Origin: Octopus vulgaris
Taxonomy: Eukaryota
Reading direction: 5' to 3'
NCBI GenBank assembly: GCA_951406725.2
Contig: OX597822.1
Location: 100,440,001-100,504,000 of the forward strand
Length of the DNA stretch: 64,000 nt
Part shown: piece after piece, positions 15,839-48,102 of the stretch
Position numbering within the stretch: the first letter of the stretch is position 1
Layout of the letters: each line of letters starts with the position of its first letter
Program-made: the position numbers and the translations under genes
The notes under the pieces: generated by a model
What the model was told of the DNA's origin: nothing
Seen by the model: only the letters and a program-made list of their open reading frames with translations
The model's database searches: none

Positions 15839-16050
15839 TCTGGCCATGACAGTGAAAGTTCTACACGTGTTGCCAAAACAGATGTTTTTACAAGAGATTA
15901 AAATGAAGATATTTCAAGCCTCGATGAACATAGCTGGATAATCTTATGTAAAGGGTTCGTTAAAGCAGACTAAATTTGCCGTTATAATTAAGCCAGCAAG
16001 TTTACAGAGATTATCTAACTGTTACAACAACACCAATGTTACTATGTTGT
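15839..16050 (+). other. Conserved non-coding module C, copy 1
   Basis: Homologous to 29333, 34330 and 47901(-); invariant TGAACATAGCTGGATAATC. Confidence 0.85.
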
Positions 16051-16169
16051 TTTTTTTTTTACTGTCATCGTTGTCGTTGTTATTGTAGTTATCATTGTGA
16101 TGGTGGTGGTGGTGGTTAATAGTGGGTACAAACATGTACGTCATTGATTTGAATAAATACAAACTATCA

Positions 16170-17125
16170 ACAGTTGCCAAAAATATTTGAATGACTTCAG
16201 AGTATTTTCGGGTGCTGAATCTGAAAATGGCATTAGTTTTGCCAAATTGAGTTTACTTTTTGAGATACTATCTGCCCCCACCCAAAAAAACTTAAAGTTA
16301 CTCAAAGATAAAGAAAGGTCATGTTTATCTTAACGCTGCTTTTATCCAATCTAGTAATTTTTCTTAAACATATATATGATCTAATCTTAACATAATCTTA
16401 TCTTTGTTGCAGATTAAGATTAATATGAGTTCATCACGAAGAAGTTGCTTAAACAATTCTAAAGCATTCTGTTCACTTTGTGATGAATGCTCTTGGCTAA
16501 GTAAAAAAAAAATGTAAGATCTCAATAATTACTGGATGCATTGAATGAAGTAATGAAATGTTATCTGTTAATAACTTTGCAGATTTCATTCAATTGTTAC
16601 TTAAGCAAACACAACTGCAAAGAGTTAAAAAATAATACAAATGTTAGTATTGTGAATAACAGTCTGTTAAGTGCAATATCCTTACTGCAGTCTATCAATA
16701 AATGTGTGAAAAATAAAATAAAGAAATGAAAGAGTTCAAAGGTTGTAAGGAAAGTATTTGTTTGAGTGTTTGTGAGAACTGGTCTCGGTGACATACTGTC
16801 TGGATCTCTAAGAAAGAAACTACATATTTTTTCTCACAAATCGCCAATATGCATCCAACTCAAAAGCTGAATTAGGTCACCGAGATTGAAAGTGAATGAA
16901 GTTTATCTAGGTTCACCCTCAGATAGGTTTTACCTCAGATAATGGCAAATTTCTGATAATTTGGACAAATGGCTTTTCAGTGTACAATTTTCAGAGAATA
17001 AAGGAAACGAAAGGAATGACCTAGCTTTCGATTCCTGGTCATGAATCTGTTATATACATCTTACAAGAAAAATGTTACCGTCTGTGAAAGAAGCATATGA
17101 TGCTTATTTTGGTGTAAAGTTTCAA
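16170..17125 (+). mobile_element. Sola2-like DNA transposon 5' remnant, interrupted
   Basis: MSSSRRSCLNNSKAFCSLCDE (16426) and VKEAYDAYFGVK (~17086) resemble the Sola2 N-terminus. Confidence 0.5.
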
Positions 17126-17821
17126 GGTGTAAATTTAACGAAAATTCGAAAAATAAAGTGTTGCCAGATGATGTTTGCTGAGACTGCGTGTGAATGATTT
17201 AACAACACCTTGCGAATATTTAAATATGATTTTATTTACACTGCACAAGATGTAAGAAACATAATGCAACATGCAAGGTAGCCGGATACAAAAGCTTAGC
17301 ACAAGGGGTGGATTAAGCACGTCGCTTCATGTCTGTCATCATATAACGCTTATCCAGATGAGCAAGCAGTCGTTAGAGCGATCGTGCAAGAAGGAGTGTG
17401 TAAGGGATCGCCTCTTCACATACACTGAAGTTTGGCGCCTAAAACCAACTTCCTTTGTAGGTTTATTAGGAGAACAATCTAGAAGGCTCTGGAGAAACTA
17501 TCGCGTGAAAACAAGCCCCTCAATTTTAGATTTGCAAATATTTTCATAGCATTTTCTATAACTATCTTTACAGTATCAGATTGGTAATACAAACAGGAAT
17601 AATAAACATCAAGACATGGGTATATAAATATTTTTCTTTTATTCTTTTACTTGTTTCAGTCATTTGACTGCAGCCATGCTGGACCACCACCTTTAGTCGA
17701 ACAAATCGATCCCAGGACTTATTCTATCGGTCTCTTTTGTCGAACCGCTAAGTTACGGAGACGTGAACACACCAGCATCGGTGGTGGAGGGACAAACACG
17801 GACACACACACAAATATATAC

Positions 17822-17852
<31 letters not shown>

Positions 17853-18043
17853 CATACATACACACACACACATACATACATACATACATACATACATACA
17901 TACATACATACATACATACATACATACATACATACATACATACATACATGTATATATATATGTATATTCGCAAGGTGTTGTTAAATCATTTACACGTAGT
18001 CTCAGCAAACATCATCTGGCAACACTTTATATACATACATACA

Positions 18044-18082
<39 letters not shown>

Positions 18083-18779
18083 ATGAAATGAAAAAAGGGG
18101 GTCGAATTAATTAATTATTAATAAATTCGCCCAAGCAGTATTCGGTATGTAAAGACCATTTACGGTATATTTGAAGTATTAATTTATAAAAATATGGTAA
18201 AGTAAAAGAATTCACTTTACCACACACCGAACTTTTCAGAAATAGCAGCCAAAAATTTGGCTATTTCTTCAACTGCAAATAAAAGTCTCCAGACAATGCA
18301 TACTCAGAAAAATAACTCACATAGGAATAAGGGAAAAACAATGAAAGATCACATCCATATACGATACCCGAGGACAGTCTGTTTCTGGATTTGTGGGTAA
18401 AACCGTAAATGGTCTTATGCCATGGTTCATTTTATTAAATTGCGCTTTGTTTGAGTACAATTCAACAAACTAACCCTAACCCTAACCCTAATTCGAACAA
18501 AATGCCTTCGTTGAGGTAGCTCCTGATTTGTTTTTCTCAGAACACTGACCCCATTCCTTCTCCGATACAATTAATCTCCACCATGGTGTGCACACACATT
18601 GTGACATCACCTGGCCTCAAAATAGCCACTGCCAATAACAGTAAACATCCGGCACTGAGGTTTTCCATTGCAATAAATGAAAGCGATTTCTATGAGTAGT
18701 ATGAGATAGTTAAAGCAATAACAGCCTCTGCACTGCACAAGCTACTGGTAAGTACTTACTACTTTCTTCATCCATTTGA

Positions 18780-19935
18780 CTAGCAGTAGTAACCGGAGTT
18801 GCACGGGTCTTAATAAATTACCATGAAACTGCGGAAACATGAGGCCTTACACTTGAGAAAAGACGGTTTGGGGCGTGAGATTGTTAAAGCAATAACCTTG
18901 GTAACCTCTTGAATAAAATCAATACCCAAGCTGTCCTTCAAGAAGTTATATTCTTGCGCTGTTTACGGTTCCTGTGTACAAGTGCTTTCAGGTGAAGCCG
19001 GGCCAAATCGCTGAACCACCAGAACGATTCGATTGAAATTTCAGATATGCATTAGGTATGCTCTAAGGCATATTTTAGTCATAACAACTGCTTCAATCAA
19101 TGTTCGGCTTTCGCAAAAACTTGATCGATAATTATCGATTTTTTCAAAAAAGTCGTCCGATTTCAACCAAACTCGGTACACAGTTGCAGTTTGACCCAAA
19201 GAGTTTCATGGCATCGCGGTACTCAGCGGATGACCGGAAGACTGAAACTGAACTACAGAAGAACAATGAATTGTTTCCAGGCCAGCATGCGAACGACCGT
19301 CATGACCTCCTAGCGCGAGTCATCCGGTTGAAGCTTATCAAACTTAAGGAAGGGTAAATATTTGGCCCCGTTAGATGTGATACGTATACTGTTGAATGGC
19401 AAAAGAGAGGCCTACCACACGCTCACATTCTAATCTGGCTCTCCGTAAAAATACCCTCCAACGATATTGACAAGATTATCTCTGCCGAGATTCCAAACCC
19501 ATCTACTGACAGACATCTCTTTGAGATAGTCAAGGCCACCATGATCCAGGGACCATGTGGGCGCGGATTCAATTTAGGCTCCCCTTGCTTGAGCAACAAT
19601 TTTTGCTGTAAGAAGTTTCCAAAAAAATTTCTGAAGGAAACACAAACTGGCGTAGATGGATACCCTCAGTACAGTCGGCGCCAACCTGCAGGCGGTAGAT
19701 TTGCCCTGAAAACTTGACAACATGACGTTGACAACAGATGCGTTGTACCGTATTCACCGCTTCTTTCGAAGACGTTCGGTGCCCACATCAACGTGGAGTT
19801 TTGCCGTTCCATCAAGTCCATTAACCACGGCCAGCTGTACATTGCATGCTCCAGAGTCGGCAGTAGAGACAGACTGTTCCCATTAACACGTCGGGGGAAG
19901 ACAAGAAGCATTGTCTACAACAAAGTGCTACGTAT
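18780..19935. mobile_element. Internally deleted Helitron (Rep and helicase C-terminal remnants)
   Basis: EWQKRGLPHAHILIW (19394), ISAEIP, VVPYSPLL, HINVE, then HGQLYIACSRV. Hairpin+CTAG terminus on the minus strand at 18780. Confidence 0.9.
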
Positions 19936-20150
19936 TTGCCAAGGCTGAAGTGGGTACGTTATTGCCATGCATGCATATACTTTTATTACTTTTTCCCATC
20001 AGAAAAGGGCGCCTGCTTCTTGACATTCTGTGGGTTTATGGAAGGTGTTCGTGTGGTGCTCCTACGATGGCAAAGAGGTGGCGATTGATTCGTTGAAGCC
20101 GCACGATAATAATGCGAAGAAACAATGCCAAACAGCTGCTACAAACGGAC

Positions 20151-20540
20151 TGTGGAGGCGCAATGGCCCAGTGGTTAGGGCAGCGGACTCGCGGTCATAG
20201 GATCGCGGCTTCGATTCCCCGACCGGGCGTTGTGAGTGTTTATTGAGCGAAAACACCTAAAAAGCTCCACGAGTCTCCGGCAGGGGATGGTGGTGATCCT
20301 TGCTGTACTCTTTCACCACAACTTTCTCTCACTCTTACTTCCTGTTTCTGTTGTACCTGTATTTCAAAGGGCCGGCCTTGTCACTCTCTGTGTCACGCTG
20401 AATATCCCCGAGAACTACGTTAAGGGTACACGTGTCTGTGGAGTGCTTAGCTACTTACACGTTAATTTCACGAGCAGGCTGTTCCGTTGATTCGGATCAA
20501 CCGGAACCCTCGTCGTCGTAACCGACGGAGTGCTTCCACC
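20151..20540 (+). mobile_element. Full-length SINE family 2
   Basis: Complete head and tail; TSD ACAAACGRAC. Confidence 0.9.
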
Positions 20541-20879
20541 ACAAACGAACCAGCGGAAAGGCAAGTTAGATACCTGAGCTAGTGAAGTTTATAAAGGCGT
20601 TAATTCTAAGTCCTTTTTAACCCAACTTAGTTGGTTTGCAGCAAGCATACAAGCCCTGTCTTCAGCTCTGCTCCAACAGCTCCCAATAATCAACGAATTT
20701 TCTGGTATTTCACAGCTTTTCCTATATGTTGTTCCCAAGGCCCAGCCCATCGCCACTTCATTACTTCCTTGATGGAAGTTGAAAAGATCACTACGTCTGC
20801 ATGGAGTGTCGGTTACATGACGTAGTGAGAGGACTTTAGTTGTTTTACAACAGTCACTTTCAGCTGCCATCTAAGATTT

Positions 20880-21600
20880 ATAAGTGCTTAATTGGTTAAT
20901 CACTCGAAATGATTAAGCAGTTAGAATTGAAGTTAAAAATTAATTTGGAGTTGTTTAGAATAATTACAATAAATTGCTAAATAGAAAATCGTTTTTTTCC
21001 TTTCTCTCCTGAGCGATTTATCATTTTCACTTCATTAACTAGATTAAAATGTTGATAAGTCTCTAAGTTTATATTTTTTAAAACAAAAATACCTTTAAGA
21101 TTCTTTAAGAGTAAAAACGTTTTTCAAATCTTGAATCTGAAGTCCAATAACTTCATGTTATTGTTTTCTTAATGTTTATTCATAAATATTCTTAATAACT
21201 TTAAATCCTTTGGTTCATTCTAGCTTCTTACAAAGCGCATTTTTACAAATTTTGTCTAACTTCTAAAATGATATTCTTTTGATATTTTTTCTCACTTTCT
21301 CTCATTTTTCATAATCTGTGATGAAACTGTTGAACCTGAATGCTATAACATGATCTTTTGTTATTAAAAAATCCCACGTGTTAAAACTGCTCAAATCTTT
21401 TTTGACGAAAACTTAAAAGCTGTATCAAATGTTATATTGAACATATGATTAAAAACAAAATCCTCTTCGTGGGTTACCTGCATTCGAAACCTTATCAATG
21501 CATTCATATTCAAACCGGTTCTTGTTTTATTTACGCCAAATTTTATAGTTAATTCTCTCACTGATACTTGTGCTCTTTAATATCTAATTACTTGATAATG
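20880..21600 (-). mobile_element. Very degenerate hAT (Tip100/ZMYM1-like) C-terminal remnant
   Basis: Fragmentary minus-strand KNRFEYE, DTA..KKRFEQF and SGE..RFS. Confidence 0.4.
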
Positions 21601-21885
21601 AATTAAGTAATTAGTGCAGTAATGAGACTGCAGTGAGAGAGACTACAGTAGACAGTTCCACAGAAACATTTCTGCGTGGTTTTACTGACAATATTTTACT
21701 TTGTCTGTTCGTCCAACTTCACGTTCAGAGTTCAAATTTCGCCAAGGTCGACTTTACTTTTCATCCTTTCGGGGTCGATAAAGCAAGTGCCAGTTGATTA
21801 CTGGAGTAGATGTAATCGACTTAATCCCTGCTCCTGAAATTGCTGGCCTTGTGCCAAAATTAGAAAACTATTTTACCTTGCCTAA

Positions 21886-22298
21886 AGGCGACGAGCTGGC
21901 AGAAACGTTACCACGCCGGGCGAAATGCGTAGCCGTATTTCGTCTGCCGTTACGTTCTGAGTTCAAATTCCGTCGAAGTCGACTTTGCCTTTCATCTTTT
22001 CGGGATCGATAAATTAAGTACCAGTTACGCATTGGGGTCGATGTAATCGACTTAATCGGTTTGTCTGTCCTTGTCTGAACTCTCTGTGTTTAGCCCCTTG
22101 TCGGTAGTAAAGAAATAGGTAGTAAAGAAATAGGTATTTCGTTCGTCTTTACGTTCTGAGTTCAAAATTTGCCGCGGTCGACTTTGCCTGTCATCCTTTC
22201 GGAGTGGATAAAATAAGTACCAGTTGAGCCCTGGGGTTGATGTAATCGATTTACTCTTCTCTCGAAATTGCCGACATTTTGCCAAAATTTGAAATCCA
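21886..22298 (+). mobile_element. SINE family 3 dimer
   Basis: Two monomers inside a 17-bp TSD TATTTTACCYTGCCTAA (21869 and 22299). Confidence 0.85.
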
Positions 22299-22949
22299 TA
22301 TTTTACCCTGCCTAAGACATCATACCAGACATTCATCATTACTAGAAAACTGTTATTTATTTGTGATTCAAATGTCTCCACTTAATATTTGACTGTAGAA
22401 GCCGAGGCAGGCATTTCTGAAAGTTTTACAAAAGGCTTCCTGGATTCTTATAAGTCCTTGAGACACATTCTAATTTGCACTCTCGTCTAATCTCGCTAAA
22501 AGATGTTGAAACGAGGCATGCGTGAAAAAATCCTTCTAGTACATATCATCGTCCACAAAATGCAGAAAATAAAACGTATAAGCGTTGGTCAGTAAAATAA
22601 ATTTTTAAAAAATAAATGAACAAATAAAGGAAAAAAAAAACAAGAAATGGATACTCGGCAGTTTGTTGCACTATCACCAACTACAAGGTTCAAACCCAGC
22701 TTATGACATACACATTTTTAACGCCCGTGAATTTGTCTTCATGAATCGCGCCTGATCTACTTCTTTGTTAGGTTTCATATTCGAACCATTATCGTTGCCT
22801 GATCTTTGCAGTTAAGTAATTATGACTCTCTCTCTCTCTCTCTCTCTTTCTCATGCTCTCTCTCTTTCTCACGCGCGCTCTCTCTCTCTCTCGGTCTATC
22901 TCTCTCCCTCTCAGAAAATCAAAATTCGTAAAAACCCTCTGTCAGTAAA

Positions 22950-24060
22950 GATATCTATAACCGATTCATAGCTCACGAAAAGTTGCTTCATTGAAATACC
23001 TTCTACGTCTAAAAATCCAAGTGTAACTAAAAACTTCTCTTCATGACAAATCTAGCAATACAGTCTAAGATAAAAACTGAAATGTATGGTTTCTTTAATC
23101 CGTTTAATATATTTTCCTAAACAGCAACAAATTGATTGTTTCATTCTAAACATTTTTCTCCCGCCACAGTGAAAATAAGTTTCTTTAGACATACAGCGAC
23201 ATCAATGTTTGTTCATCGCCATTACAAATCTTCCAAGTAGCTTAGTAAGATCTCAAAAGAGAAAAAAAAAAACCTTCCCTGTGCGCAAAGTAAGTAATTT
23301 GCCTGAAGTTTCAGTAGTTAAATACGGACTAATGCCCATTAAACGCTCCAGTGCTATCGTTCTTTTTTTTTTGCCACACGTGATTGCTTCTACTATTTTT
23401 ATTAGTCTGCTTTCGCAGTGAAGTCTCGGGCCATTTCTTCAAACATTCCAATAGATGTATTGAATTTTCAAGTGACTGCAAATATTCACGAGCGTTCTTC
23501 CAGTCATTAATTCCAGATTTTCTTAAAAAATGACTTAATTGAGAAGTCAAAAACTTTGCAACAAAAGCAATAAATTGTATTGATTTGGTGCTCTCGGCAC
23601 ACAGAAGCCATCTTCTAAGCAAAATATCCGCCATTGTTAATTTTCATATCACATCATTGTTTAAAAGAAACTACGTACATTTATTTGCATCTTTCAGAAA
23701 ATTGTACTATTTATCAATAAGAAAAAACTGGTTCATAATAATGATTTCCCCACTTTAATAATAATGGTTTCTTTTATCAAATTATCTGTAACAATAATTA
23801 TGATTTTCCACTCATGATAATTCATACGGTCAGTATGCTGGGTCATAGTTTTTGACATTTTTGGGGGGAGACTTTTCAAATTGTCTTTTAAAAAATTCTC
23901 AGAATCTTTGTTATGACATTATTATTTCCCAAGTCTTCAACAACGTTGCAAATGTAATCGTGATGTTTGATTAAAGCGTAGTCATACTCTTCTTGAGAAA
24001 GTACAGTATCTTAAATTTGTTTGTCAAATCTGGACCGGCCAGATGTCATATTGAATCTGA
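22950..24060 (-). mobile_element. Degenerate hAT (Tip100/ZMYM1-like) N-terminal remnant
   Basis: SGINDWKNAREYLQSLENSIHLLECLKKW resembles the TTF-zinc-finger region. Confidence 0.55.
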
Positions 24061-24913
24061 ATTGTTAAGACTTGATTACTGGAGTAGATGTAATCGACTT
24101 AATCCCTACTCCTGAAATTGCTGGCCTTGTGCCCAAATTACAAAACTATTTTACTTTGCCTAAAGGCGACGAGCTGGCAGAAACTTTACCACGCCGGGCG
24201 AAATGCGTAGCCGTATTTCGTCTGCCGTTACGTTCTGAGTTCAAATTCTGAGTTCAAGCGAAAGAAACTTGAAAACTTTGGGTGTTTTCTTGGCTGCTAT
24301 TTCTTGTGAAAGGCGTATTTTTGGTTTGTTGTATTTTCCTGGCCACTAATTTTTAAAAGCTTTTGAAATCTAGTAAAGGAGTCTAAAACGGAGTCAAGGA
24401 TGTGAAAGACCAAGCCACAGGTTCTTTTCTGTTTGTTAGTAAACTTTTTTTATCTGCCGTATTGGAATGTGGAAAGGATATGCTAAGAGAGTTGGAAGAA
24501 AGGAAGAACGTATTATAAAGATTGGTGGATTAGATAAATATGTGAGAGGTTAACAGAGAGAGAGAGGGGGGGAGAGGGGGAGAGAAATAGCGAGACAGAC
24601 AACCAGATGTGCAGACGGGGATATATAGTGAGGAATGGAAGAAATGAGAGAGAAATAGACAGCATGAATGGAAGGGAGAAGTGGAAAGGAGAAAGATATC
24701 TAAAACAGATATATGGAATTAGAGAGGGGACGTGATTAAATAACAAAGGTACAGACAATGAGAAAGGGAGAGGGAGGGAGAGAGAGACAGATAGACAGAG
24801 GCAGAGATAGAAATTCATGTATGATATATGCGTGGTGGGAGGACAATTTGGGAAATGGAGTGAATTGGTGGAGGTGGATATCGATTGGGAGAAAGAAACA
24901 GAGGTAAATAATG

Positions 24914-24944
<31 letters not shown>

Positions 24945-24949
24945 TAAGG

Positions 24950-25440
24950 TATGTAGAAAAATACAACATGGACAAGAACGTATAACTCTTAGAAGACGAT
25001 ACAATAAACACGGACAGGACATTCGAAACCCTCAGTCTTCAGTCAAGAACCGGATCATCGTAGTAATTTCGGCTGATTAATCTTGAGATTACTAGATCAC
25101 GGCCAGCCCTCCAAGAAAAACTAAGCAACGAGCATTAGAAAAACTAAGCTGGGAGCGTAGATTTCCTGGAAGAAGGATCGAATGCATACGAACACCGGGA
25201 CAGCAAAAGGGACGAATATAAAAGGCAAAAAACAATAATGGAATACAGAAACATGAAATACAGAAGCATTAACGGTGAAAACAACAAGTGTCTTACGACT
25301 GATAACAAGCAAACAAATTTTCTCTGGCGCAATTTGGAAAGGAGCCTTATCGGCGATGCCTTGGCGGCGGACGAAAAACAACGATGTTAACACGTCGCTG
25401 GTGGGAAGCTGAGAGGCAGATTTCGGCCAGCGGTCACGTG
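24950..25440 (-). mobile_element. Interspersed repeat next to (TA)n, probably Penelope-pLTR-derived
   Basis: Homologous to 31680-31960, 31985-32140, 50190-50480 and 56485-56640; carries a CTGAAGA...CGAA motif. Confidence 0.55.
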
Positions 25441-25529
25441 ACAGAGAAGAGAGAAAAGAAAAGAAAGAGAAGCAAAAGAAGGAAGAGAGAGAGAGAAGAG
25501 AGAGAGAGAGGAGGGACAAACGCAATATA

Positions 25530-26065
25530 TATATATATATATAAAGCAGAGTTTGTGTGTGTGCGAGCGCGCGTATGTTCCTTACACATTCGAAAACTTT
25601 TGTCACTTTCACCTGCAATCCTAAATGGGAGGAAATAAAATCTAACTTTCTTCCAGCGTCACATCTTCTGGTATTGCAGCTATCCTCCTCAATGGGGGAA
25701 GAGCTGCCCATTCCGTGTTCAAGCTTCCTCTAAACCTTGTAACGAGAGAATCTCAAATGTGTAACATTTCCCAAAACTCTGCAATGGCAACAGTTCTCCA
25801 ACAAACTTGCCTCGTTGTTTGGGATGAGTGCACTTTGTCACTTCAAGGAGCTCCAGAGGTACTTGACCGAACCCTCCAGGACAAAAAACTATCGCACGCT
25901 CATGAGAAGAGTAACAGTTCTTCTTGCAGGAAATTTTCGTCAAACGTTGCCAGTTATCCCCAAAGAATCAAAAGCTGACGAGGTCAATGCAATGCATGCT
26001 TACAAAAATCGTACCTTTGGAGACATGAAAAAACTTCATCGTACAAGCAACATGAGAGTACTTCT
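25530..26065 (+). mobile_element. Helitron fragment (Rep motif joined to PIF1-like helicase motifs)
   Basis: TFTCNPKWEEIK, SSGIAA, AHSVFKLPL, VVWDEC, GNFRQTLPV. Confidence 0.9.
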
Positions 26066-26338
26066 AAGACACACGCAAACACATACATATACATACGGAT
26101 GATTTCTTTCAGTTTATGTTTACCAAACTCACCCACAAGGCTTTGGTCGGTCCGAGGCTATAGGAGAAGACACTTGGCCACGGTGTCACGCAGTTGGATT
26201 GCTCTCGGAATCATGTGCATGGGAAGCAAGCTCCTTTTCCCGACCACATAGTTTCGGGTTCAATCCCGCTACATGGCACCTTGGCCAAGTGTCTTCTGTA
26301 TATTTTATCACAGATGATGATTGCAAAATATCTTAAAG

Positions 26339-26412
26339 ATTATTTTATAATCTTTATGAAGAGTTAACGTTTATTTATAAACGTTAACTCTTCATAAAGA
26401 TTATAAAATAAT
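26339..26412. repeat. Perfect 36-bp inverted repeat with a 2-nt loop
   Basis: 26339-26374 is the exact reverse complement of 26377-26412. Confidence 0.95.
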
Positions 26413-26838
26413 TTACTTACATTTCTTCAAGCTATGATGTTTAGCCTCTGCAGTTCCTGGTCCTGAGTCTTGATAAGTGGCCATCTTAAACCAGTATTTC
26501 GCTGGTTTCAGTCGAGGAATTTTTTGTTATTTGTCCCACGAGTATAACAATCTGGTACACATTTTACCAACTTATCCTTACCAAATAGCTGATCAATCTA
26601 GAGTTTCGGGGAAAGAGATGTAATTCGATGACTCGATTCACCATTTTATACTAATGTACACAGACTCAGCCTCAGTTAACCTGTCGCCACAGAAAACGAA
26701 AATGACACGCGTAGTGGGGTCGAACCCGGAACCCTCTTGGGGTAAAGCCATATTTCTTAATCACACGGCTATCACTGTACTAGTGTATTAACTATATGAA
26801 AACCAAAATAAAACAAAACAACGGTATATGTTCGTATA

Positions 26839-27914: not shown

Positions 27915-27969
<55 letters not shown>

Positions 27970-29332: not shown

Positions 29333-29520
29333 TTTGACCATGAAAATTCTCCACGTGTTACTAAAACAGACGTTTTTTACGAGAGGTTAAAATGAAGAGA
29401 TTTTAAGCTCCAGTGAACATAGCTGGATAATCCTTTGTAAAGGGTTCGTTAAAGTCGACTAATTTGCCGTTATAATTAAGCCAGCAAGTTTACAGAGATT
29501 ATCTAACTGTTACTATGTTG
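29333..29520 (+). other. Conserved non-coding module C, copy 2
   Basis: Homologous to 15839-16050. Confidence 0.85.
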
Positions 29521-32559: not shown

Positions 32560-32806
32560 ATTTTCTCTTAAATACCGAAATACGTCACAGAGCACCTCCT
32601 AATTCCATCAATAACCCACTTGCACACTATCACTTGCATCTTCGGCAATGATCTTGACAATGAAATCATTGGGACACGTGATGTCACGGCCAGTGTAGAT
32701 GTGAACAAACCCAAACGTATTTCAAGGTATATTTATCCATTGATAATATTTCATTAATCTTTCGAAAAGAACAAATCAGTTGGGTCTCCCTAAATATAGA
32801 ATTAGT
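32560..32806 (+). other. Conserved non-coding module A, copy 1
   Basis: Inverted homologue at 48985-49215; paralogous to module B. Confidence 0.8.
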
Positions 32807-32880
32807 TGTAAAGGTGCAGTTGTTTCCTACCTACATACATACATACATATATATACGTATGTATGTATGTTCTTTTAATA

Positions 32881-33139
32881 CTTAAATACGTCATAGACTA
32901 CCTCTCCCCTCCTCCTTTTCATTTCATTAACATCTCACCTACACATTGTTCTATTAGAGTCTGGCGTGGTCTTGGCAATGAAATTTAAGATACACGTGAT
33001 GTCATCACCAGCGTGCGGATGAATGCAAAGATGATTGCCTATCTCAGTGGCCGTCGATAATCTGTTAATTTCCCGGCAAGAGTACTCCACTGAGGTCTCC
33101 CTCAATATTGCGATTGGAATTAGTGATAAACCAGCTTAT
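32881..33139 (+). other. Conserved non-coding module B, copy 1
   Basis: Inverted homologue at 48315-48558. Confidence 0.85.
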
Positions 33140-33870: not shown

Positions 33871-34017
33871 TAGGAGTGTGGTAAAAAGCTTGCTTCCCAA
33901 TCACATGGTTCCGGGTTCAGTCCCACTGCGTTGTACCTTGGACAAGTGTCTTCTACTATAGCCTCGGGCCGAGGCTATTGACATGTGTGTGTGTATGTGT
34001 ATGTGTGTGTGTGTGTA

Positions 34018-34057
<40 letters not shown>

Positions 34058-34273
34058 TGTTTGTGTCCCATCACCGCTTGACAACCGGTTGTGGTGTGTT
34101 TACGTCTCCGTAACTTAGCGGTTCGGCAAAAGACACGGATAGAATTAAGTTCTAGGCTTTAAAAAAATAAGTCCTTGGGTCGATTTGTTCAACTAAGACC
34201 CTCCCCCCACGCCAAGGCGGTGCTCCAGCATGGCCGCAGTCAAATGACTGAATCAAATAAAAAAATAAAAGAA
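33871..34273 (+). mobile_element. SINE family 1
   Basis: Homology to 3364-3760. Confidence 0.85.
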
Positions 34274-34329: not shown

Positions 34330-34540
34330 TCCGACCATGACAGTGAAAATCCTACACGTGTTTCGAAAACAGACGTTATTACAAGAGACTGAAGCGAAGA
34401 GATTTTAAGCTCCAGTGAACATAGCTGGATAATCTTATGTATAGGGTTCGTTAAAGCCGACTAATTTGCCGTCATAATTAAGTTAGCAAGTTCACAGAGA
34501 TTATCTAACTGTTCCAACGATGTTGATGTTTCTGTGTTGC
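34330..34540 (+). other. Conserved non-coding module C, copy 3
   Basis: Homologous to 15839-16050. Confidence 0.85.
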
Positions 34541-35699: not shown

Positions 35700-35755
35700 G
35701 CTGTGATGATTATAAAATACAATACTTAAAAACCTAAGGGTATATCTTTTTTCTA

Positions 35756-36151: not shown

Positions 36152-36211
36152 TTACCTCTGGATATCCTTGTTGCTTATTTTGACATATATATATATAAAC
36201 ACACACACACA

Positions 36212-36259
<48 letters not shown>

Positions 36260-36938: not shown

Positions 36939-37628
36939 ATATGAAAAAAAGAAACAATTTTACAGTAGACTAAAGTATTATTCAATGAAGTTTTAGAAGA
37001 CTACATGTTTATTAATTTTTTTATAAGGGAAAAGTTGACAGTGACCTTGAAGCTTCGGCTCGCTCACACACACATACACATACACAACACTGACACATTT
37101 ACGCTTATACATACTTAGTTTTATGTATGTATACATACATGCACGCAAACATATATATATGTTTATACATACATGCTTACGTATGTATACATATACTCAA
37201 ACACATACACATATACGTATATGAAATATTTAGTCACGTCAGAGACTGTTCTTTCCTTTTTTTTTTTTTTTTGGTATTACAAATTACTTATTAAATTACA
37301 TAATTCGGTGAACACAACATATTAATCCGGGATGAAACAATGCTAAATGTGTGTGTGTGTGTGAAGGGGGGGCGGCGGTTATTATGTTGGTTTTTTTTTT
37401 TTTTTTGCTTTTTTTAATTTTTACTCGAACCGACTCATAGTCACACACACAGATACATACATATAAGCATAACAGATATAGATATATACACGAACATACA
37501 CACGCCCAGATAACACACAAATATATACGCATATATTCACACAATTAACAGAAAGAGGCATTCAGACACATACAGATAACCACAGAGCCACACAGCCGCA
37601 TATACATACATATACTCACAGATAGCAT

Positions 37629-37669
<41 letters not shown>

Positions 37670-37820
37670 CACACACACAGACGTACACACCAGTAACAGA
37701 CATAGAAACACAAACGCACACATAGATAACAGAATAGATACGCACACACAAACACGACAGATAACACACACACACACACAGATATGCGCGCGCACATTGA
37801 TAACACATATAGACATACAT

Positions 37821-37885
<65 letters not shown>

Positions 37886-38755
37886 CATAAACATACAAAC
37901 ATGCTAACAGATATAGTTATACACACGTAAATATGCACAAATAACACAGACACACAGACAGACAGCCTATCTCATCCGCTTTTGTTTCTGTCTGTTTCGC
38001 TGTTTCTCTTCTCTCCCCGGCTTTTCTTCGAATTCCTCCTAAATCTCTCTTTCCCTCTCTTTTGCCTTTTACAACATGGATGAAGGTCAATCGGTTATGA
38101 AGACTAACAGATCGATTTATCTATTTATCTATTTATTAATCTGCAGGATAGTTAAGAAGGTCAAGTTTTACCAAAATATTTAGGAAGTTCAAGATTCGAT
38201 AACAAGAAGGCATTATGTGACCAAAATAGAAAAGTCACAGTTCTATAAAAGAGTCACTATGTTACTGAAATAGTTTAAAAGAAAAAAAAAACGGAAAAAA
38301 TACAGAAAAAATGGTCAAGATTCATTAAGAGAGTAAATTAAGTTTCGCGACGCAGTTTTATTGCATGATGGTTGGAAAGAAGCGAGTAAATAGGGTCTGA
38401 GAGAGTAAAAGAGATATGAGTGAGTAAATGAGTGATGAGAAGAGTAGAGAGTGAGAGAGAGAGAGAGAGGTGGAAGGGGAGAGAGAGAGAGAGGAAAGGA
38501 GAGAAAGAGAGAGTCATAGAGAGAATAAGAGCGATATATACGTGTGTGTGTGTATGTGTGAAGAAAAGACACGTATATATGCATGCATGTATGTATGTAT
38601 GTATTTATGTATCTATGTATGCATGTATGTATGTATGTAGCTATGTATGCATGTATGTATGCATGTATGTATGTATGTATGTATGTATGTATGCGTATTT
38701 GTATCTGTGAGGTTTTAATGTTCAGTTTGACTATATATATACACACACAGACACA

Positions 38756-38815
<60 letters not shown>

Positions 38816-38893
38816 CATATATTTCCAGCAAACATTGGTGCCTTGTACCACTACTCTATATTTATATATATACATACACACACACACACACAC

Positions 38894-38925
<32 letters not shown>

Positions 38926-38928
38926 ATG

Positions 38929-38986
<58 letters not shown>

Positions 38987-39423
38987 CATATATATATATG
39001 CACAGGCTCACACACCTGTGTATGTGTGTGAGAAAAGGAAAGAACGCGGGAGAGAGAGAGAGAGAAATTATTCCATAGTTTGTTGATTTAAGCAGAAGAG
39101 GCGGGATTAACGGGGGAAAGCGTCGAAGAGTCGAGATTGTAATAAACTTGATAACAGAAACCAATGAACAGGCTAATGATCGTCTTTCTGTTAATAATTA
39201 ATCTTAGTTAAAATTTCTTGTGTTGGTGTTGAGATAATCTATAACTAGATGTGCTAAAGAGAGACATCACTGATTACCAGACGTCTCCGAGTAATTAACC
39301 TCATTAATTAAATTGTTTGAATATTTTTGAATAGATTATTACCAATCTGGAGACCTGCTAAGCAGACGTTTAGTCTCCACTATCCTTGCTGAAACTGGAT
39401 AGGCATTCGATATATATATATAT

Positions 39424-39501
<78 letters not shown>

Positions 39502-39773
39502 TAATAGATATAGTTTTGAATTTGAAATAGAACTGTTGTCGCGAATTATTGTGGTTTTCTTGGAAAATTAAATGGAATTGTCAGAAAGGGATTATGAATT
39601 CGCAACCAGGAATCGAAACCTCGGTCTGCATGTTAGTTTTCATTGTTGCTGCCATCTTAGGTGATACAGCGTCAATTTCTTTTCTTTCTATCTTTCCTTT
39701 TTTTTTTTTGAAATACCTCATCCGATTCCATTGTTTCTGATCGAGTTCTAATTTTAACACAGTTATTAATATT

Positions 39774-40171
39774 TTCTATTCAAGGCACAAGGCCCGAAAT
39801 TTTGGGGGAGAGGGCCAGTCAATTAGATCGACCCCAGTACGCAACTGCGTGGTACTTAATTTATCGACTCCGAAAGGATGAAAGGCAAAGTTGACCTCGG
39901 CGGAATTTGAACTCAGAACATAAAGGCAGACGAAATACATGTTTCTTTATTACCCACAAGGAGCTAAACACAGAGAGGCCAAACAAGGACAGACAAACGG
40001 ATTAAGTCGATTATATCGACCCCAGTGCATAACTGGTACTTATTTAATCGACCCCGAAAGGATGGAAGGCAAAGTCGACCTTGGCGGAATTTGATCTCAA
40101 AACGTAACGGCAGACGAAATACCACTAAGTATTTCGCCCGGCGTGCTAGCAATTCTGCCAGCTCGCCGCCT
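39774..40171 (-). mobile_element. SINE family 3 dimer
   Basis: 19-bp TSD TTAACACAGTTATTAATAT. Confidence 0.9.
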
Positions 40172-41212
40172 TAACACAGTTATTAATATAAGACACCTGT
40201 AGCAAAACATTTTCTTTGCTCGGCAACTTTCACAGGGGTAAAATCTTTCTTATTCCTTGCCCTTGGTAGACAACTAACTTGGCTTCAATAGCAAACCAGG
40301 TATGAGCTTTCATATCACTGTCTCCTTCACAGCAACTTAATAGTCAGCCTATTACATCTATAACAAGAAACTCTCGAACAGAACTTAAATATGCATTATT
40401 TCCAACTCGTCGCAGTCGTGATAAACCTCATAACGATTAAATATAAGCTATCATAACTCTAAGTATAAACTATCTAGTGTTAATCCTTTCAGTTACCAGT
40501 TATGAAACTCTCAGCCTTTCGCGATCTTTTTCAAATCCAATCTTTTCTCTACTAGCCTTCTGAACAGCCTTATCCAAACAATCTTGCTAATTACAATTAG
40601 TCTGGTACATCTGGTCACATCTTCAAATTACTACACATACAACCGTTACAGAATTTTGCGCAAGGCGTTGTCTTCAATAACAAATCGTATCATAAAATTG
40701 CCATTTCATTGCAAAGGCTTGTAACTCTCTCATAGAGCTGTGGGAGCGGTGTTGTAATATACGGGCATGCTTTAAGCATTTTGAAATGTGTCGGAGCCCA
40801 TTCCTCTCTATGTCTAACCACAGTCGATTTCTTCCAGAACGAAAGAGACAGACAGAAAGAAAGTACTAGAGAAAGAAAATAGTCGACTCTGGTACATAAC
40901 TGGCGCTTTATTTATCGAGCCTGAAAGATAAAGTTGACTTATGTAGGATCTGAATTTAGAGCGTAGAGAGCAGGAATGATTGCTGCAAGTTGTTTTTCCG
41001 ACACACAAACGACTCTGCCAGTTGGCTATCCATTGTGAAATTGTGAAATAAAATTGTGAACAGTTTAAAAATGGTAAAATTAGTTTGTTGCAAGGAAGAG
41101 GGAAAATGCTTTTCGTCAGAGAGTAATGTTCGTATCGAATCAATAGAATGTCGGTCGGCAGAGGGAGACAAAAATATGAAAAGAGCGAAAATTAAGGGAG
41201 AAGAGGAATGAG

Positions 41213-41255
<43 letters not shown>

Positions 41256-41453
41256 GCACGGACTTTGTCAGTGAACAGGTCGCGGATTTTAGCGACGAAA
41301 ATATTTTGACAAATTAAACTTAAATGTTGAAGTGAATCGAACGGCTTTTGTGTGTTTCTTAAATGGCTTATAAACACCTTCCACGCTGCAATTGTTTTCG
41401 TTTCAGCACACGATCTCAGATCAAATTACTTGCTATGCGAGTACATCTCCGTA

Positions 41454-41521
<68 letters not shown>

Positions 41522-41790
41522 TCTATACATTCTCCTTCGAAACGCGGAGTAGATGAAACCATGGTGACTGAAGAAGGGGAATTTTCCTTGTGTTAATTGT
41601 CCTGTACTCTATTTTTTCGTTGTTTAAGAAAAATGTCCTGTTCCTTGGTTTTATGTTTGTGTTTTCGTTTCTCATTGTGTTCGACGATTTTTTTGGTGTC
41701 CTGTACCCATAGATGCATGTATATATACATGTAGATGTAGGTACGTACATGTATGTATGTATATATGCTTATGTTTTGTTTATTAATTTG

Positions 41791-41835
<45 letters not shown>

Positions 41836-42336
41836 ACAGTGGAGGGAGGAGACCACTTGGCGAAACGTGGTGAAAGTAGGGGAGATAATCAGCAAAGACG
41901 TTGGCAAATTAGAACGATGCAGACAATCTCTAGCTTTCCCGGTTTCTACTCTTGACTTTATTAAAGGTAAGATATTGAGTTATCATTTCAAAGATTATTG
42001 ACGATTATCGAAGATTATTAAATATTATTATAGAACGATAGACGTGGGTAGAAGACATGGGTAGAATTTAGGGTAGAAGCAAGCAACTGCTGAAGCTATT
42101 TACTCAGACGATTAGTTTCTTTTTATATCAAAATAAACAGCTAATGTTCTTATACGTTGGGTGTAGTTGTGGTTGTCGTCATACATTGTTGATGCTGCTA
42201 TTACTGGTGCTGTTATCGTTGTCGTTGTTATCGTTGATGATGTTACTGCTGATGCTTCTGTTGTTCTTGCTATTGTCGTTTATTATCAGTTCTGGTGGAA
42301 TAAATAGATATATGATTAAAGGGGTCTCAGCTATGG

Positions 42337-42768
42337 AAGGTGGCGAGCTGGCAGAAACGTTAGCAGTATTTCGTCTGCCGCTACGTTCTGAGTTCAAATT
42401 CTGCCGAGGTCGACTTTGCCTTTCATCCTTTCGGGGTCGATTAAATAAGTACCAGTTACGCACTGGGGTCGACGTAATCGACTTAATCAGTTTGTCTGTC
42501 CTTGTTTGTCCCCTCTGTGTTTAGTCCCTTGTGGGCAATAAAGAAATAAGAAACGTTAGCACACCGGGCGAAATGCTTAGCGGTATTTCGTCTGCCGTTA
42601 CGTTCTGAGTTCAAATTCTGCCGTGGTCGACTTTGCCTTTTATCCTTTCGGGGTCGATAAATTAAGTACCAGTTGCGCACTGGAGTCGATGTAATCGACT
42701 TAATCCGTTTGCCTGTCCTTGTTTATCCTCCCTGTGTTTAGCTCGATGTGGGTAGTAAAGAAATAGGT
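42337..42768 (+). mobile_element. SINE family 3 dimer
   Basis: TSD TCTCAGCTATGGA. Confidence 0.9.
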
Positions 42769-42945
42769 ATCTCAGCTATGGATATTGCATCTGCCTCCCC
42801 ACCCCCGTTATTGTATACCCTGGCTATACTATCCAATATATACTTTATGTAAATCTATTTGGTCGCTCGAACTGCTGCTGCTTCTAGCAAATCGAGCAGC
42901 CACATAAAAATCCTCTCGTTGGCCTGAATATATGTTAGTCTATAT

Positions 42946-44330
42946 CAGTGTTTCCCAAACTTTTCGCACCGAATTGCAATATCGCCCACCTATCGGCCAA
43001 AAAATGCTCCATCGCTCACCTGTGTAAAAAAAAAAAGACCTTGACACAACCCCCCCACCAACACAAAATCCCCTAAGAGCCCCCCTGTATCATTTGACAC
43101 ACACACTACATTGTTGCCCTGTTGGTGCCGTTTGGACCAACGGGTGTTTACAAATCCTTTATTATGGGTTTAGTTTTGCCATTAGTGTCAATAAAATTCT
43201 AGCGTTAACTCTATATTATGCAGACAGATTAACTTCTGGAAACTTGCGCTTTCTTTTACACTGATTTTCATTTTCCCCAAATGAACCATTGATCAGAACT
43301 ACCGATGCAAAAATAATTAATGATTGTATTACAAAGGAAAAGAATACAACCTTTTAATGAGAACCATGTGTCTGGTGCGATGCAGCTAGTTGCCGATACA
43401 TACGGTTTCAAACTTGTCAACTTTAGCCGCATGTCTCCTCGTTGTATCACATCCAGTCCAATTTTTTTATGGGAAAGTTCCAACATGGTTAAAACCAGAT
43501 TCAACTAGGTATGAAGTAGGGAAGGCAAGCAAAAGTAATTTCAGATTGAGGTAGGAATTCAATAAACTCTGATGGTATCACAAACCTTCTTCACCATTAC
43601 GGTGTAATCGCATTGTGGCGTCATTGCCAATTTGTAATTCTATCAATTCCTCCTGAACATCATACTCGCAATGACTGCATCGACCTCAAACGGATTGCTA
43701 TACCAATTTGGAATATTCAGCGCAACAACATCTTCAAATCACTCCATGTTATCGTGCAGTGGTTGTATATAGTTGCGATATGCAGTTAAATCCTCATCAA
43801 TCAATTCATCTTTCAAAGAATCAAGTTCTGGAAGTTAATAGAATTGACGTTTTGAAATGTTAGTCTTAAACAACACCAATTTCGAAATGAAGGTAGTGAT
43901 TAATGATTTACAATCAACGAGAGTTTTACTGTTCCCTTGCAATAATCTATTCAAATAATTTAATTTTATGAATACATCACAAATAAAAAAGATATCACTT
44001 CTTGCAGCCATCAATGAGGCGGATAGTGGAATATTTTCAAAGAAAAAGATATTATATAAAACAGTTGAACAAAATGTAAAACACAGTTTCCATTTGACAG
44101 CCACCGCACTTGGTATGGTATAAGAGTTTAGTATGACCCTCATCATTTCTCAGACAGAGTTGACAGAAAATTCGATCAGACAAGGGACTGGACTTCAATT
44201 TGTTCACAGTCTTGATAACTAATTGTAGCGCATCATTCAATCTACTGTTTATATTTTTTGTCAATAAATGCTGCCGGTGTGTCAAGCAATGAACAGTTAG
44301 TATCTGGTGGGAAATTTCACGCAAAATAGG
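42946..44330 (-). mobile_element. hAT (Charlie/Buster, ZBED5/8-like) transposon 3' remnant
   Basis: TIR CAGTGTTTCCCAAAC; minus-strand VHCLTHRQHL, LLYHT, LNRLLQG, PTSYLVESGF and RGDMRLKLT. Confidence 0.85.
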
Positions 44331-44334
44331 AGGA

Positions 44335-44672
44335 GGAGACCTCCTTCGGTCATGAATTACCATGGGGCTGCACCTAGAAAGTTACCCTCCGAGGCACAAA
44401 TCAGGGCAAGATTGTTTGTGGAAGGCTAGCAGTCACCCATGCATACCAGCCTCCTCTCTCCATGCCACCGATGTTATCCAAGGGAAAGGCAAATGCCAAT
44501 ACAGCTTGGCACCAGTGATGTCGCAACTCATTTCTACAGCTGAGTGAACTGGAGCAACGTGAAATAAAGTGTCTTGCTCAAGAACACAACACGTAGTCCG
44601 GTCCGGGAATCGAATTCACAATCTCACGATCGTAAACTCTGCGCTCTAACCTCTGAGCCATGCGCTTTCACA
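44335..44672 (-). mobile_element. tRNA-derived SINE (TTGAGCAAGACACT type)
   Basis: Head with GTTAGAGCG and TTCGATTCC; homology to 8935-9060. Confidence 0.8.
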
Positions 44673-45422
44673 GTCCGCAATGCCAGAAAAATCCGCGATG
44701 TACTGAGAGCGCGATAGGTGAATCGTGATATGGCGAGTGGTTACTGTATGTCAGCCTCTCGTTCCGTTTTCGACAGGATTTCTGGACACCTTTTAAGTTT
44801 CTGTAAATAGAAACTTGTTAGCATTACCATGTCAGTATTATGTCATCTTGACACCATTAGGCTTTCTAAAGTCAGCCGTCGCAATATGATAATGCTTTTA
44901 TCAAATCTTGATATTATTTAATATTTTGATAACAAGATGATTATTTTACAGAACCTTGATCTGCGTAACAAAATGCTGATTAAAAACAAGAAGAACAAAA
45001 ACAAAAACATTTTGCTAGTTTATTTCTTATAACTGATTAATCTGCAGCCGTTCGGATGAGAAAGCGACAGCGCGCCCGCATGCGTGAGAAGCAGAAGTAT
45101 AGAAAAAAGAGAAGAGAGGAAGAGATAGAGAAGAGAGACAAGAAGAGAGAGAGAGGAGGAGAGAGATGGAGGAAGAGAGGGTTGGAAGAAAAGTGAGAGC
45201 AAGACTAGGAGTGCTTGTGTGTTAGTCTATGAGTGTATGTGTGTGTGTTTGCGTGTGTTTAACGCATCAGGTGAGCTGGCTAAAATGAAAGAACAACAAC
45301 AACAAAAAAACACAAACAAACACACATTTGGTTTTACTTTATCTGAGATTAATATTTTGTGTTCACTGAGGTATGTAATCCATTGGACGGATTTACTACT
45401 CACCGATACACGTCGGGTAATA

Positions 45423-45862
45423 CTACTATGGCAATTCCTCAAGGTCGAGGATGATGGTCTTCGCGCAAATTTATTGGTGAGTCCGCAGGTGACTGATAAG
45501 ACAAATTCTTGCTCGAAAAGATCGGTCGCAGTGCGGACATCAAGTGCCGGAAGGGAGAGTCGCACGTGGTTGTTGTTGTTGGCGCTCCTTCCGTCGTCTT
45601 CGTCTTTTCTCCTCCAGCTCTGCAGACCTTTTCGACTCGAAATTCGCCGTTCCCTCATGGATGGTGGTGGTTTTCCAGAGTGGTCTGTTTTTTGCCGTTT
45701 CCTCCCAGTTGGTGAAGTCAATGTCACACTTTTTGAGGTTCGATTTCAGGGAGTCCTTGTAGCGTTTCTTCTGGCCTCCTTTTGTACGCTTGCCGTCTTT
45801 GAGTTGGGAGTAGAAGATCTGTTTGAGAAGTCGTTCGTCAGTCATAGAATGACACACACATA

Positions 45863-45909
<47 letters not shown>

Positions 45910-46342
45910 TATCTATGGCAATCCCTCAAGGTCGAGGATGATGGTCTTCGCGCAAATTTATTGGTGAGTCCGCAGGTGACTGATAAGACCAATTCTTGCT
46001 CGATAAGATCGGTCACAGTGCGGACATCTAGTGCCGGAAGGGAGAGTCGCACGTGGTTGTTGTTGTTGGCGCTCCTTCCGTCGTCGTCGTCTTTTCTCCT
46101 CCAGCTCTGCAGACCTTTTCGACTCGAAATTCGCCGTTCCCTCATGGATGGATGGTGGTGGTTTTCCAGAGTGGTCTGTTTTTTTGCCGTTTCCTGGAGC
46201 GGCCACGTGGTTAGAATGACTGACGAACGACTTCCCAAACAGATCTTCTACTCCCAACTCAAAGACGGCAAGCGTACAAAAGGAGGCCAGAAGAAACGCT
46301 ACAAGGACTCCCTGAAATCGAACCTCAAAAAAAAAAAAAAAA
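45423..46342 (-). mobile_element. Chimeric RTE-clade insertion: two 3' ends plus an inverted piece inside one TSD
   Basis: [38 protein letters not shown]...GLISHLRTH; 13-bp TSD ACGTCGGGTAATA at 45410 and 46343. Confidence 0.9.
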
Positions 46343-47246
46343 ACGTCGGGTAATATGTTTTATCAAAAGACATGTAAAAGGCATTCATTATCATGTAGGT
46401 ACTCTATGTCTGTCTGTCTGTCTCTCTTTCTCTCACACATGCACACACACACTCATATTAAACAGAAATGGACCAAGAGAAATAACGCATGTGCACGAAC
46501 GGCATAAACATATACAGGTATAGCAAATACGGTACAACATAATTTTTTTATTTTACAATCATCGGAGTCCGAAGCGTTCCTCACGAACGCACGTTGGTGA
46601 GACGGTTGTGATATATAAACAGTTTCGAATAAGAACCGGAAAGCGAAGTATGAACATGCAATGTGCATGTGCACGCCGAACATAAAAATAAAAATGCAAT
46701 GCGCATGTCAAAGTAAAACGGAAGAGGAGAATAAAACAAATTATATGACAACACTATTAGTGAAGCTTTGCTGTAATTGTCTTGGTTATTTTTTTCATTT
46801 TTCGTTTATTAAAACCATCTTCGCATTTAGATGAGTCACAATTACCAAATGGCAATTAAGACCAGCTACATATGAGAAGGGGAGATAATCGCAAGAACCA
46901 AGCATTCTCTAGAGTTGGCAACGTGCCATTAAAGAGAAGAACAGTATTAAATGAAGTACCGAGAAGAGTATTTTATTTACTAAAAGAAACTTTGAAAGCT
47001 GTGCCCCAAGAATGACTGCAGTACTGAAACTGCTAAAAAATTTAAAAGAAAAACTGACCGATGCATAGCCGTCTTTGAAGCATTATAGGCCCCTGGACAA
47101 CTTAATACATTAGGTTCTATAGTAGTTATTTACTTGTAAGCAAGCCACAGCATACACAGACCAGAATTGAACCACTAGACCAGACTTGTGAGGCCCTTGG
47201 ACAACTGCTCAGCGTGCCCACGCTTTAAGACAGTATTAGACCCATG

Positions 47247-47666
47247 GAAGGCGGCGAGCTGGCAGAACCGTTAGCACGCCGGGCGAAATGCGTAGCCGTA
47301 TTTCGTCTGCCGTTATGTTCTGAGTTCAAATTCCGCCGAGGTCAGCTTTGCCTTTCATCCTTTCGGGGTCGATAAATTAAGTACCAGCTACGCACTGGGG
47401 TTGATGTAATCGACTTAATCCGTGTGTCTGTCCTTGTTTGTCCTCTCTGTATTTAGCCCCTTGGGGGTAGTAAAGAAATAGGTATTTCGTTCGTCTTTAC
47501 GTTCTGAGTTCATATTCCGCCGAGGTCAGCTTTGCCTTTCATCCTTTCGGGGTCGATAAATTAAGTACCAGTTACGCACTGGGGTCGATGTAATCGACTT
47601 AATCCGTGTGTCTGTCCTTGTTTGTCCTCTCTGTGTTTATCCCCTTGTGGGTAGTAAAGAAATAGG
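47247..47666 (+). mobile_element. SINE family 3 dimer
   Basis: TSD GTATTAGACCCATGG. Confidence 0.9.
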
Positions 47667-47900
47667 TATTAGACCCATGGTTGTTTTCACCCAAGTTTAT
47701 TTGAAAAACAGTAGTTTAAACATTTAAGTTTCATCTTCTAATCTTTATCGCATTACTGTTACAAATATAGAAACAATGTCATTGATGTTCCGACAATTAT
47801 ATAAGTCATTCATTCACCTGCTCCCTTATCCCCTCATCACTAACAAACATAATCTATGCCACCCTCACCATCCACAACAACGAACATAATAAGGTATGAT

Positions 47901-48102
47901 AACATTGGTGCTGTTGTATACAGTTAGATAATTCCAGTGTAGTTGCTGGCTTAATTTCAATGGCAAATTAGTTGGCTTGGCCGAACCCTTTACAGAGGAT
48001 TATCCAGCTATGTTCACTGGAGCTTAAAATCTCCTCATTTTAACCTCTCGTAAAAACATCTGTTTTAGTAACACATGTAGAATTTTCACTGTCATGGTCA
48101 GA
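47901..48102 (-). other. Conserved non-coding module C, copy 4 (inverted)
   Basis: Reverse-complement homologue of 15839-16050. Confidence 0.85.

What the first reader, a model, noticed from the sequence alone, without database searches (positions are those of the whole stretch)
15839..48102. Four copies of a ~200-bp non-coding module (C) with a conserved long stem
Copies are at 15839, 29333, 34330 and 47901(-), among otherwise unrelated repeats. TGAACATAGCTGGATAATC, AGGGTTCG, AATTTGCC and ATTATCTAACTGT are invariant. There is no shared ORF, TSD, tail or Pol III head. A ~22-bp stem can form (copy 2: 29419-29441 with 29489-29510) around an inner TAATT/AATTA hairpin. Inference: a clustered structured-RNA family or a duplicated enhancer.
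Basis: partly seen in the sequence, partly recalled or inferred. Interest (0 to 1): 0.8.

Follow-up and report, generated by a model that had tools for sequence, protein, structure and literature searches.

The report
Locally duplicated octopus enhancer-like cassette
Four real copies of a 185-base non-coding stretch, with about four seen genome-wide in each of two sequenced animals, belong to a larger locally duplicated block that is likely a gene-control switch rather than a new folded RNA.

Summary
The four copies are real (83-90% alike) and non-coding. Whole-genome contigs of two coded organisms each show about four copies at 80% likeness or more, which excludes a dispersed MITE. B1 and B2 are about 60% alike and probably remote paralogues of C.

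The structured-RNA reading is weak. The stem forms in three copies, but copy 4 folds otherwise. Consensus-fold z is only -1.7 to -2.0, covariation is at chance level, and there is no Rfam or MirGeneDB match. Three of the four 'invariant' motifs change in the second organism.

In B, short blocks resembling transcription-factor sites stayed intact beyond neutral simulation (1 of 204). C's stem core is an inverted pair of GATA/homeodomain-like words.

Best reading (0.45): a duplicated cis-regulatory cassette whose target gene lies outside the window. Rivals: neutral relic of local duplication (0.28) and hairpin or long non-coding RNA (0.20). Expression and chromatin could not be tested.

The parts
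15839..16025 (+). Module C, copy 1 (weak homology runs on about 25 bp upstream and 15-130 bp downstream through a GTT/GGT-rich tract); no B module nearby
29333..29512 (+). Module C, copy 2; 6-bp deletion in the 5' motif; only 2 private substitutions; no B module upstream
29419..29441 (+). 5' arm of the predicted stem in copy 2; holds GATAATC(C/T), a GATA/K50-homeodomain-like word
29489..29510 (+). 3' arm of the predicted stem in copy 2; inverted GATA/homeodomain-like word; aligns to a gap in the B modules
32563..32818 (+). Module B1 of the copy-3 unit
32871..33139 (+). Module B2 of the copy-3 unit (about 60% like B1)
33873..34273 (+). SINE-like repeat copy between B2 and C in the copy-3 unit, absent from the copy-4 unit; used as a rough clock
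34330..34513 (+). Module C, copy 3; orthologue with its flanks seen in organism D
47920..48102 (-). Module C, copy 4 (inverted); 14 private substitutions, clustered; alternative fold
48315..48572 (-). Module B2 of the copy-4 unit (34 mismatches in 257 to B2 of copy 3)
48974..49214 (-). Module B1 of the copy-4 unit (50 mismatches in 235, 10 gaps, to B1 of copy 3)

Best explanation
Module C is the third part of a locally duplicated non-coding cassette (B1-B2-C) that likely acts at the DNA level as an enhancer for a gene outside this window. SHOWN: the B1-B2-C order in two inverted units; C alone at two more sites; about four copies genome-wide in two organisms; no coding signal. INFERRED: (1) one ~250-bp ancestral module was tandemly multiplied long ago into B1, B2 and C; (2) C gained its 3' arm as an inverted second copy of its GATAATC word, so the 'stem' is a by-product of two inverted binding sites; (3) the cassette, or C alone, was then copied three times within 33 kb, before the split from organism D, probably by repair-type local copying, while microsatellites and SINEs filled the spacers; (4) selection acts on short factor-binding words (E-box CACGTG, CRE-like TGACGTA, TGACA, GATA, TAAT cores; labels recalled except TAATCC), not on base pairs; (5) the copies would add dose or redundancy to one target gene, some perhaps now decaying.
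For: Low copy number: six listed contigs of run X5 on the module each match one or two of the four window copies; four contigs of run X10 sum exactly to the body depth of 165; a microsatellite in the same call drew depth above 170,000. Colinear B1-B2-C in the copy-3 and copy-4 units. B-to-C homology: mean score of 16 pairs 46.4 against 34.9+-2.3, 0 of 400 column shuffles as high. The word TG[AG]CA[AG]TGAA occurs 7 times in the window, all in B or C, same orientation; CACGTG sits in 6 of 8 modules (motifs chosen after seeing the alignment). Block-wise conservation in B exceeds neutral simulation: top three runs >=25 in 1 of 204 matched simulations, longest run >=10 in 8 of 204. The variable column beside the 5' arm toggles TAATCC/TAATCT; TAATCC is the K50 homeodomain consensus (PMC6169884, passages). 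No codon signal in C; no Pfam match better than E 0.047 for 42 read-through frames of B and C.
Against: No chromatin, binding or reporter data. No host or target exon found: 146 open frames scanned, only transposon domains; small exons would be missed. C is not better kept than its neighbours (32 of 183 mismatches between copies 3 and 4, against 34 of 257 for B2 and 50 of 235 for B1). The D orthologue of copy 3 differs at 14 of about 250 positions, 12 of them listed inside the module, so no constraint over the short flanks is visible. The block test was positive for B, only borderline for C. The reverse strand of C also scores 40.9 against B (5 of 400 shuffles as high), so the shuffle null is too lenient. 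TAAT-core excess in C is weak (P 0.05-0.20).
Confidence: 0.45

Rival explanations
1. Neutral relic: ordinary unique DNA was copied locally several times during break repair; C looks like a sharp 'module' only because fast-changing microsatellites and SINEs bound it.
For: Module not more conserved than flanks between organisms. Of two-state columns, 29 are transitions and 11 transversions. Nine D differences fall on the 131 columns invariant in the window, 2 of them in the stem arms (about 2.5 expected; table incomplete for part of the 3' arm). The window holds other local copy pairs of 44-276 bp. Sizes fit repair-mediated duplications (mean 162 bp proximal, 302 bp distant; PMC2671141, passages).
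Against: C is kept at 4 of 4 sites with like ends, in both organisms, while B is at 2. Only 3 small indels among the four cores. B blocks beat neutral simulation. The SINE between B2 and C3 is 35 of 289 from the majority of four other copies; if it came after the duplication, neutral distance could reach about 24%, above the 13% and 17.5% seen for B2 and C. Spacings of 5-13.6 kb exceed the usual <5 kb.
Confidence: 0.28
2. C is transcribed and works as RNA: a non-canonical long-loop hairpin (proto-microRNA or editing duplex), or B and C are exons of a duplicated long non-coding RNA.
For: Stem probability 0.99-1.00 in copies 1-3; consensus fold of the 3' half beaten by only 10 of 200 (given strand) and 5 of 200 (other strand) shuffles. 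15 of 18 stem pairs never vary; stem columns 37 of 45 invariant against 94 of 135 outside, P=0.07. The A>G change in two D contigs keeps a U-G pair on the given strand. All four B modules open with a pyrimidine tract and YAG, like a splice acceptor.
Against: Single-copy fold z of the hairpin -1.3 to -2.3, and the best value is copy 4's other fold. Whole-module consensus z -0.9 and -1.2. Covariation at chance: 248 of 500 shuffles as high. One D copy breaks a stem pair. Stem of about 22-25 bp with no basal extension, against 30-35 bp canonical (PMC12553114, passages). No match in Rfam or in the stored MirGeneDB table, whose first octopus row has a 29-nt loop against about 48 here. Seven O. vulgaris/O. 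bimaculoides hairpin pairs shown there differ at 10 of 902 nt (counted by eye), against about 5.6% for copy 3 versus D (distance of D unknown). One copy is inverted, so no single host transcript.
Confidence: 0.2
3. Old MITE or other dispersed transposon, or a fossil coding exon.
For: An imperfect inverted repeat is present; the window is full of transposon fragments.
Against: About four copies genome-wide at >=80% likeness; the inverted repeat is internal, not terminal; no target-site duplication; stops in all frames and flat codon-position pattern. Copies under 80% alike are not excluded.
Confidence: 0.07

Closest known systems
Regulatory-element families made by segmental duplication (Weaver and Lowe, bioRxiv 10.64898/2025.12.03.692127; abstract and section list seen)
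   Same: Small family of similar non-coding elements made by duplication, not by transposition; proposed enhancer role.
   Different: Those were defined by open chromatin and tested by reporter and CRISPRi in human cells; here the unit is only about 0.3-1.7 kb, strictly local, and untested.
Repair-mediated duplications (Pace et al. 2009, PMC2671141; passages seen)
   Same: Short, closely linked intra-chromosomal copies of unique DNA, either orientation, sometimes carrying factor-binding sites.
   Different: Four copies with like ends, 5-13.6 kb apart (usually single pairs under 5 kb); junction marks are not readable at this age.
Long-loop invertebrate microRNA hairpins such as Drosophila mir-989 (PMC12553114; passages and one cut supplement table searched)
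   Same: Two complementary arms around a long, partly structured inner region.
   Different: Stem too short, no basal stem, fold lost in one copy, arms change between organisms, not in the table.

Membership tests
canonical or long-loop pre-microRNA | stem of 30-35 bp with about 10 bp below the Drosha cut | tested here: not met
   22-25 bp predicted, no basal extension; standard from PMC12553114
canonical or long-loop pre-microRNA | fold kept in all paralogues, with compensatory change | tested here: not met
   copy 4 stem probability 0.00; covariation 248 of 500 shuffles
canonical or long-loop pre-microRNA | mature and star reads with 2-nt overhangs | not testable with these tools
   no RNA holder listed; contigs cannot show RNA ends
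canonical or long-loop pre-microRNA | listed among annotated octopus microRNAs | tested here: not met
   no octopus row matched the arm words; file cut when stored, about 202 octopus rows held, apparently sorted long loops first
MITE | high dispersed copy number | tested here: not met
   about four copies in two whole-genome runs at >=80% likeness
MITE | terminal inverted repeats and target-site duplication | tested here: not met
   shared inverted repeat is internal; longest direct repeat across the ends 5 bp, different in each copy
SINE or other Pol III transcript | A and B boxes, tRNA-like head, tail | tested here: not met
   (box patterns recalled)
known structured RNA (Rfam 15) | match to a covariance model | tested here: not met
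   0 at gathering over the window; 0 for copy 3 and one E=4.1 chance hit for copy 2 at E<=10
protein-coding or pseudogene exon | shared open frame or third-position excess | tested here: not met
enhancer family made by duplication | clustered factor-like words kept beyond neutral expectation | tested here: inconclusive
   met for B (1 of 204), borderline for C (P 0.046-0.066)
enhancer family made by duplication | open chromatin, reporter activity, target gene | not testable with these tools
   no such data; no gene found in the window
repair-mediated duplication | short, linked, intra-chromosomal copy | tested here: met
repair-mediated duplication | empty site, microhomology or filler at the junction | tested here: inconclusive
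   ends fade into microsatellites; all four copies appear present in D, so no empty site seen

The most novel reading that the evidence does not exclude
A hairpin was born by inverted copying inside one member of an older module family (C has the 3' arm, its B paralogues lack it), and that member alone was then multiplied and kept fourfold in two octopus-like genomes: a young family of long-loop, non-canonical hairpin RNAs caught after birth from regulatory DNA.
Probability: 0.12. Interest if true: 0.7.

Novelty: new member of a known kind. Interest (0 to 1): 0.3.

Why it matters
Few cephalopod enhancers have been tested (own knowledge). If active, eight related modules of graded age in 33 kb would be a ready series for asking which motifs matter and how duplicated switches diverge. 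If neutral, it is one more case of local copying. Only the hairpin-birth case would surprise a specialist.

Tried and rejected
No whole genome is held, so copy number rests on two laid runs.

No RNA holder listed among 24 runs: no evidence either way. Run X15 gave no contig on the module and X14 one low-depth identical contig; neither was used.

An alternative multi-branch fold seen by eye has probability 0.00 in copies 1-3 and wins only in copy 4: rejected as a shared structure. A recalled likeness to pistol or twister ribozymes was dropped: no Rfam hit. A frame with synonymous-looking changes was rejected by the codon count. A direct profile search of B against C printed no hit, so their homology rests.

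Collection searches: gapped motif in metagenome contigs 0; 19-mer in viral contigs 0; 19-mer in metagenome contigs 3, with likeness limited to 24-27 bases round the word, hence chance. Rfam hits near B are microsatellite artefacts.

Print: six arm words found in 0 papers; none in the text-held supplements of PMC9699675, which hold only about 65,000 characters and in which I saw no precursor list (its large data archive was not readable as text). Topic searches listed no description of this locus. Earlier scan notes held no look-alike.

Full report
Setting. The window is repeat-rich animal DNA. I read it as octopus-like from its SINEs and microsatellites (recalled) and from other notes of this scan on the same genome (unchecked). 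No whole genome is held. Of 146 open frames of 62 aa or more outside simple repeats, the only Pfam matches are LINE, Helitron and mariner domains, so no host gene was found.

Observation. Four copies exist at 15839-16025, 29333-29512, 34330-34513 and 48102-47920(-), and no fifth. Core identity is 82.8-89.7%. The named motifs are in all four. Every frame has stops and variable columns show no codon pattern. There is no target-site duplication over 5 bp and no Pol III box in C.

Copy number and age. I laid four public runs on copy 3 at 80% likeness. In run X5 (organism A) the six listed contigs on the module each match one or two of the window's copies, and body depth (67-90) is about four times single-contig depth (18-23). 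In run X10 (organism D) four contigs sum to the body depth of 165, one of them running into copy 3's own flank. A microsatellite in the same stretch drew depths above 170,000. The family is therefore a local cluster of about four, older than the split from D. Limits: the tool warns that summed depth is no copy number, a filter drops some records, most short contigs were not shown, copies under 80% alike are unseen, and the difference table leaves some positions unlisted.

The larger unit. After masking, copies 3 and 4 share two further modules upstream, in the same order and orientation, separated by microsatellites and, in copy 3, a SINE. B1 and B2 are about 60% alike. B and C are probably remote paralogues: mean score 46.4 against 34.9+-2.3, 0 of 400 shuffles as high; the reverse strand scores 40.9, so the null is lenient, and a direct profile search gave no hit. 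One shared word occurs 7 times in the window, all in B or C. C's 3' stem arm aligns to a gap in B. Copies 1 and 2 have no B.

The stem. It dominates the fold of copies 1-3 and is absent from copy 4's. Single-copy z is -1.3 to -2.3. Consensus z is -1.7 and -2.0 for the 3' half on the two strands and -0.9 and -1.2 for the whole. Covariation equals chance. The two invariant runs are borderline, stem enrichment P=0.07. In D, one copy breaks a stem pair, two carry a wobble-compatible change, and AATTTGCC also changes. No Rfam family matches. It lacks the 30-35 bp stem of microRNA hairpins (PMC12553114, passages) and is not in that paper's stored MirGeneDB table (file cut). Real octopus hairpins shown there differ by about 1% between two species, copy 3 by about 5.6% from D, whose distance is unknown.

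Is there selection? The evidence is mixed. For: B keeps blocks of 10, 8 and 7 columns, beaten by 1 of 204 neutral simulations with 95-111 invariant columns (616 run in all); C is retained four times with few indels; a SINE clock allows up to about 24% neutral distance against 13-21% seen. Against: C is no better kept than B2 or than about 70 bp of flank in D.

Mechanism. The kept blocks look like factor sites: E-box, CRE-like, C/EBP-like, TGACA, GATA (labels recalled). The stem core is GATAATC facing its inverse; the column beside it toggles TAATCC/TAATCT, and TAATCC is the K50 homeodomain consensus (PMC6169884, passages). I therefore read the cassette as an enhancer multiplied first in tandem, then by local copying, with the hairpin a by-product of inverted sites (0.45). 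That it binds factors, is active, or has a target is inferred, not shown. A neutral relic (0.28) and an RNA role (0.20) remain open; a transposon or fossil exon is unlikely (0.07).

Comparison and verdict. It would work like duplication-made regulatory families (10.64898/2025.12.03.692127, abstract) and may have arisen like repair-mediated duplications (PMC2671141, passages); membership in either is not proven. I found no description of the locus. New member of a known kind; interest 0.3. The boldest reading left, a hairpin RNA family born inside one paralogue, has probability about 0.12; hairpin birth by template switching is described (10.1101/2023.04.19.537475, search listing only).

Noticed in passing
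window 32563-33139(+) and 49214-48315(-): Four B modules all begin with a pyrimidine tract and TACGTCAYAG, readable as a CRE-like site on one strand or a splice acceptor on the other; genome-wide copy number untested.
   Followed up: partly
window 47933-47939 and 48015-48021: Copy 4's clustered changes make a 7-bp perfect inverse of a word 76 bp away, as a template switch would; this creates its alternative fold.
   Followed up: partly
window 29333-29512: Copy 2 has 2 private substitutions against 9, 10 and 14 in the others, and shares a 53-bp identical stretch with copy 1: stronger constraint or gene conversion.
   Followed up: partly
window 13333-13606/14500-14771, 7788-7978/36633-36939, 45433-45845/45920-46326, 17159-17212/17971-18024, 28159-28216/28372-28429: Other local direct or inverted copy pairs of 50-280 bp, mostly 90-99% alike.
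   Followed up: no
window 19358-19714 and 25545-26099: Broken Helitron Rep and PIF1 helicase fragments.
   Followed up: no
window 2-3009(+), 11686-13421(+), 52105-54761(-), 54851-55204(+): LINE endonuclease/reverse-transcriptase frames; the last looks like an inverted piece beside the minus-strand element.
   Followed up: no
window 59354-60402: Decayed mariner transposase.
   Followed up: no
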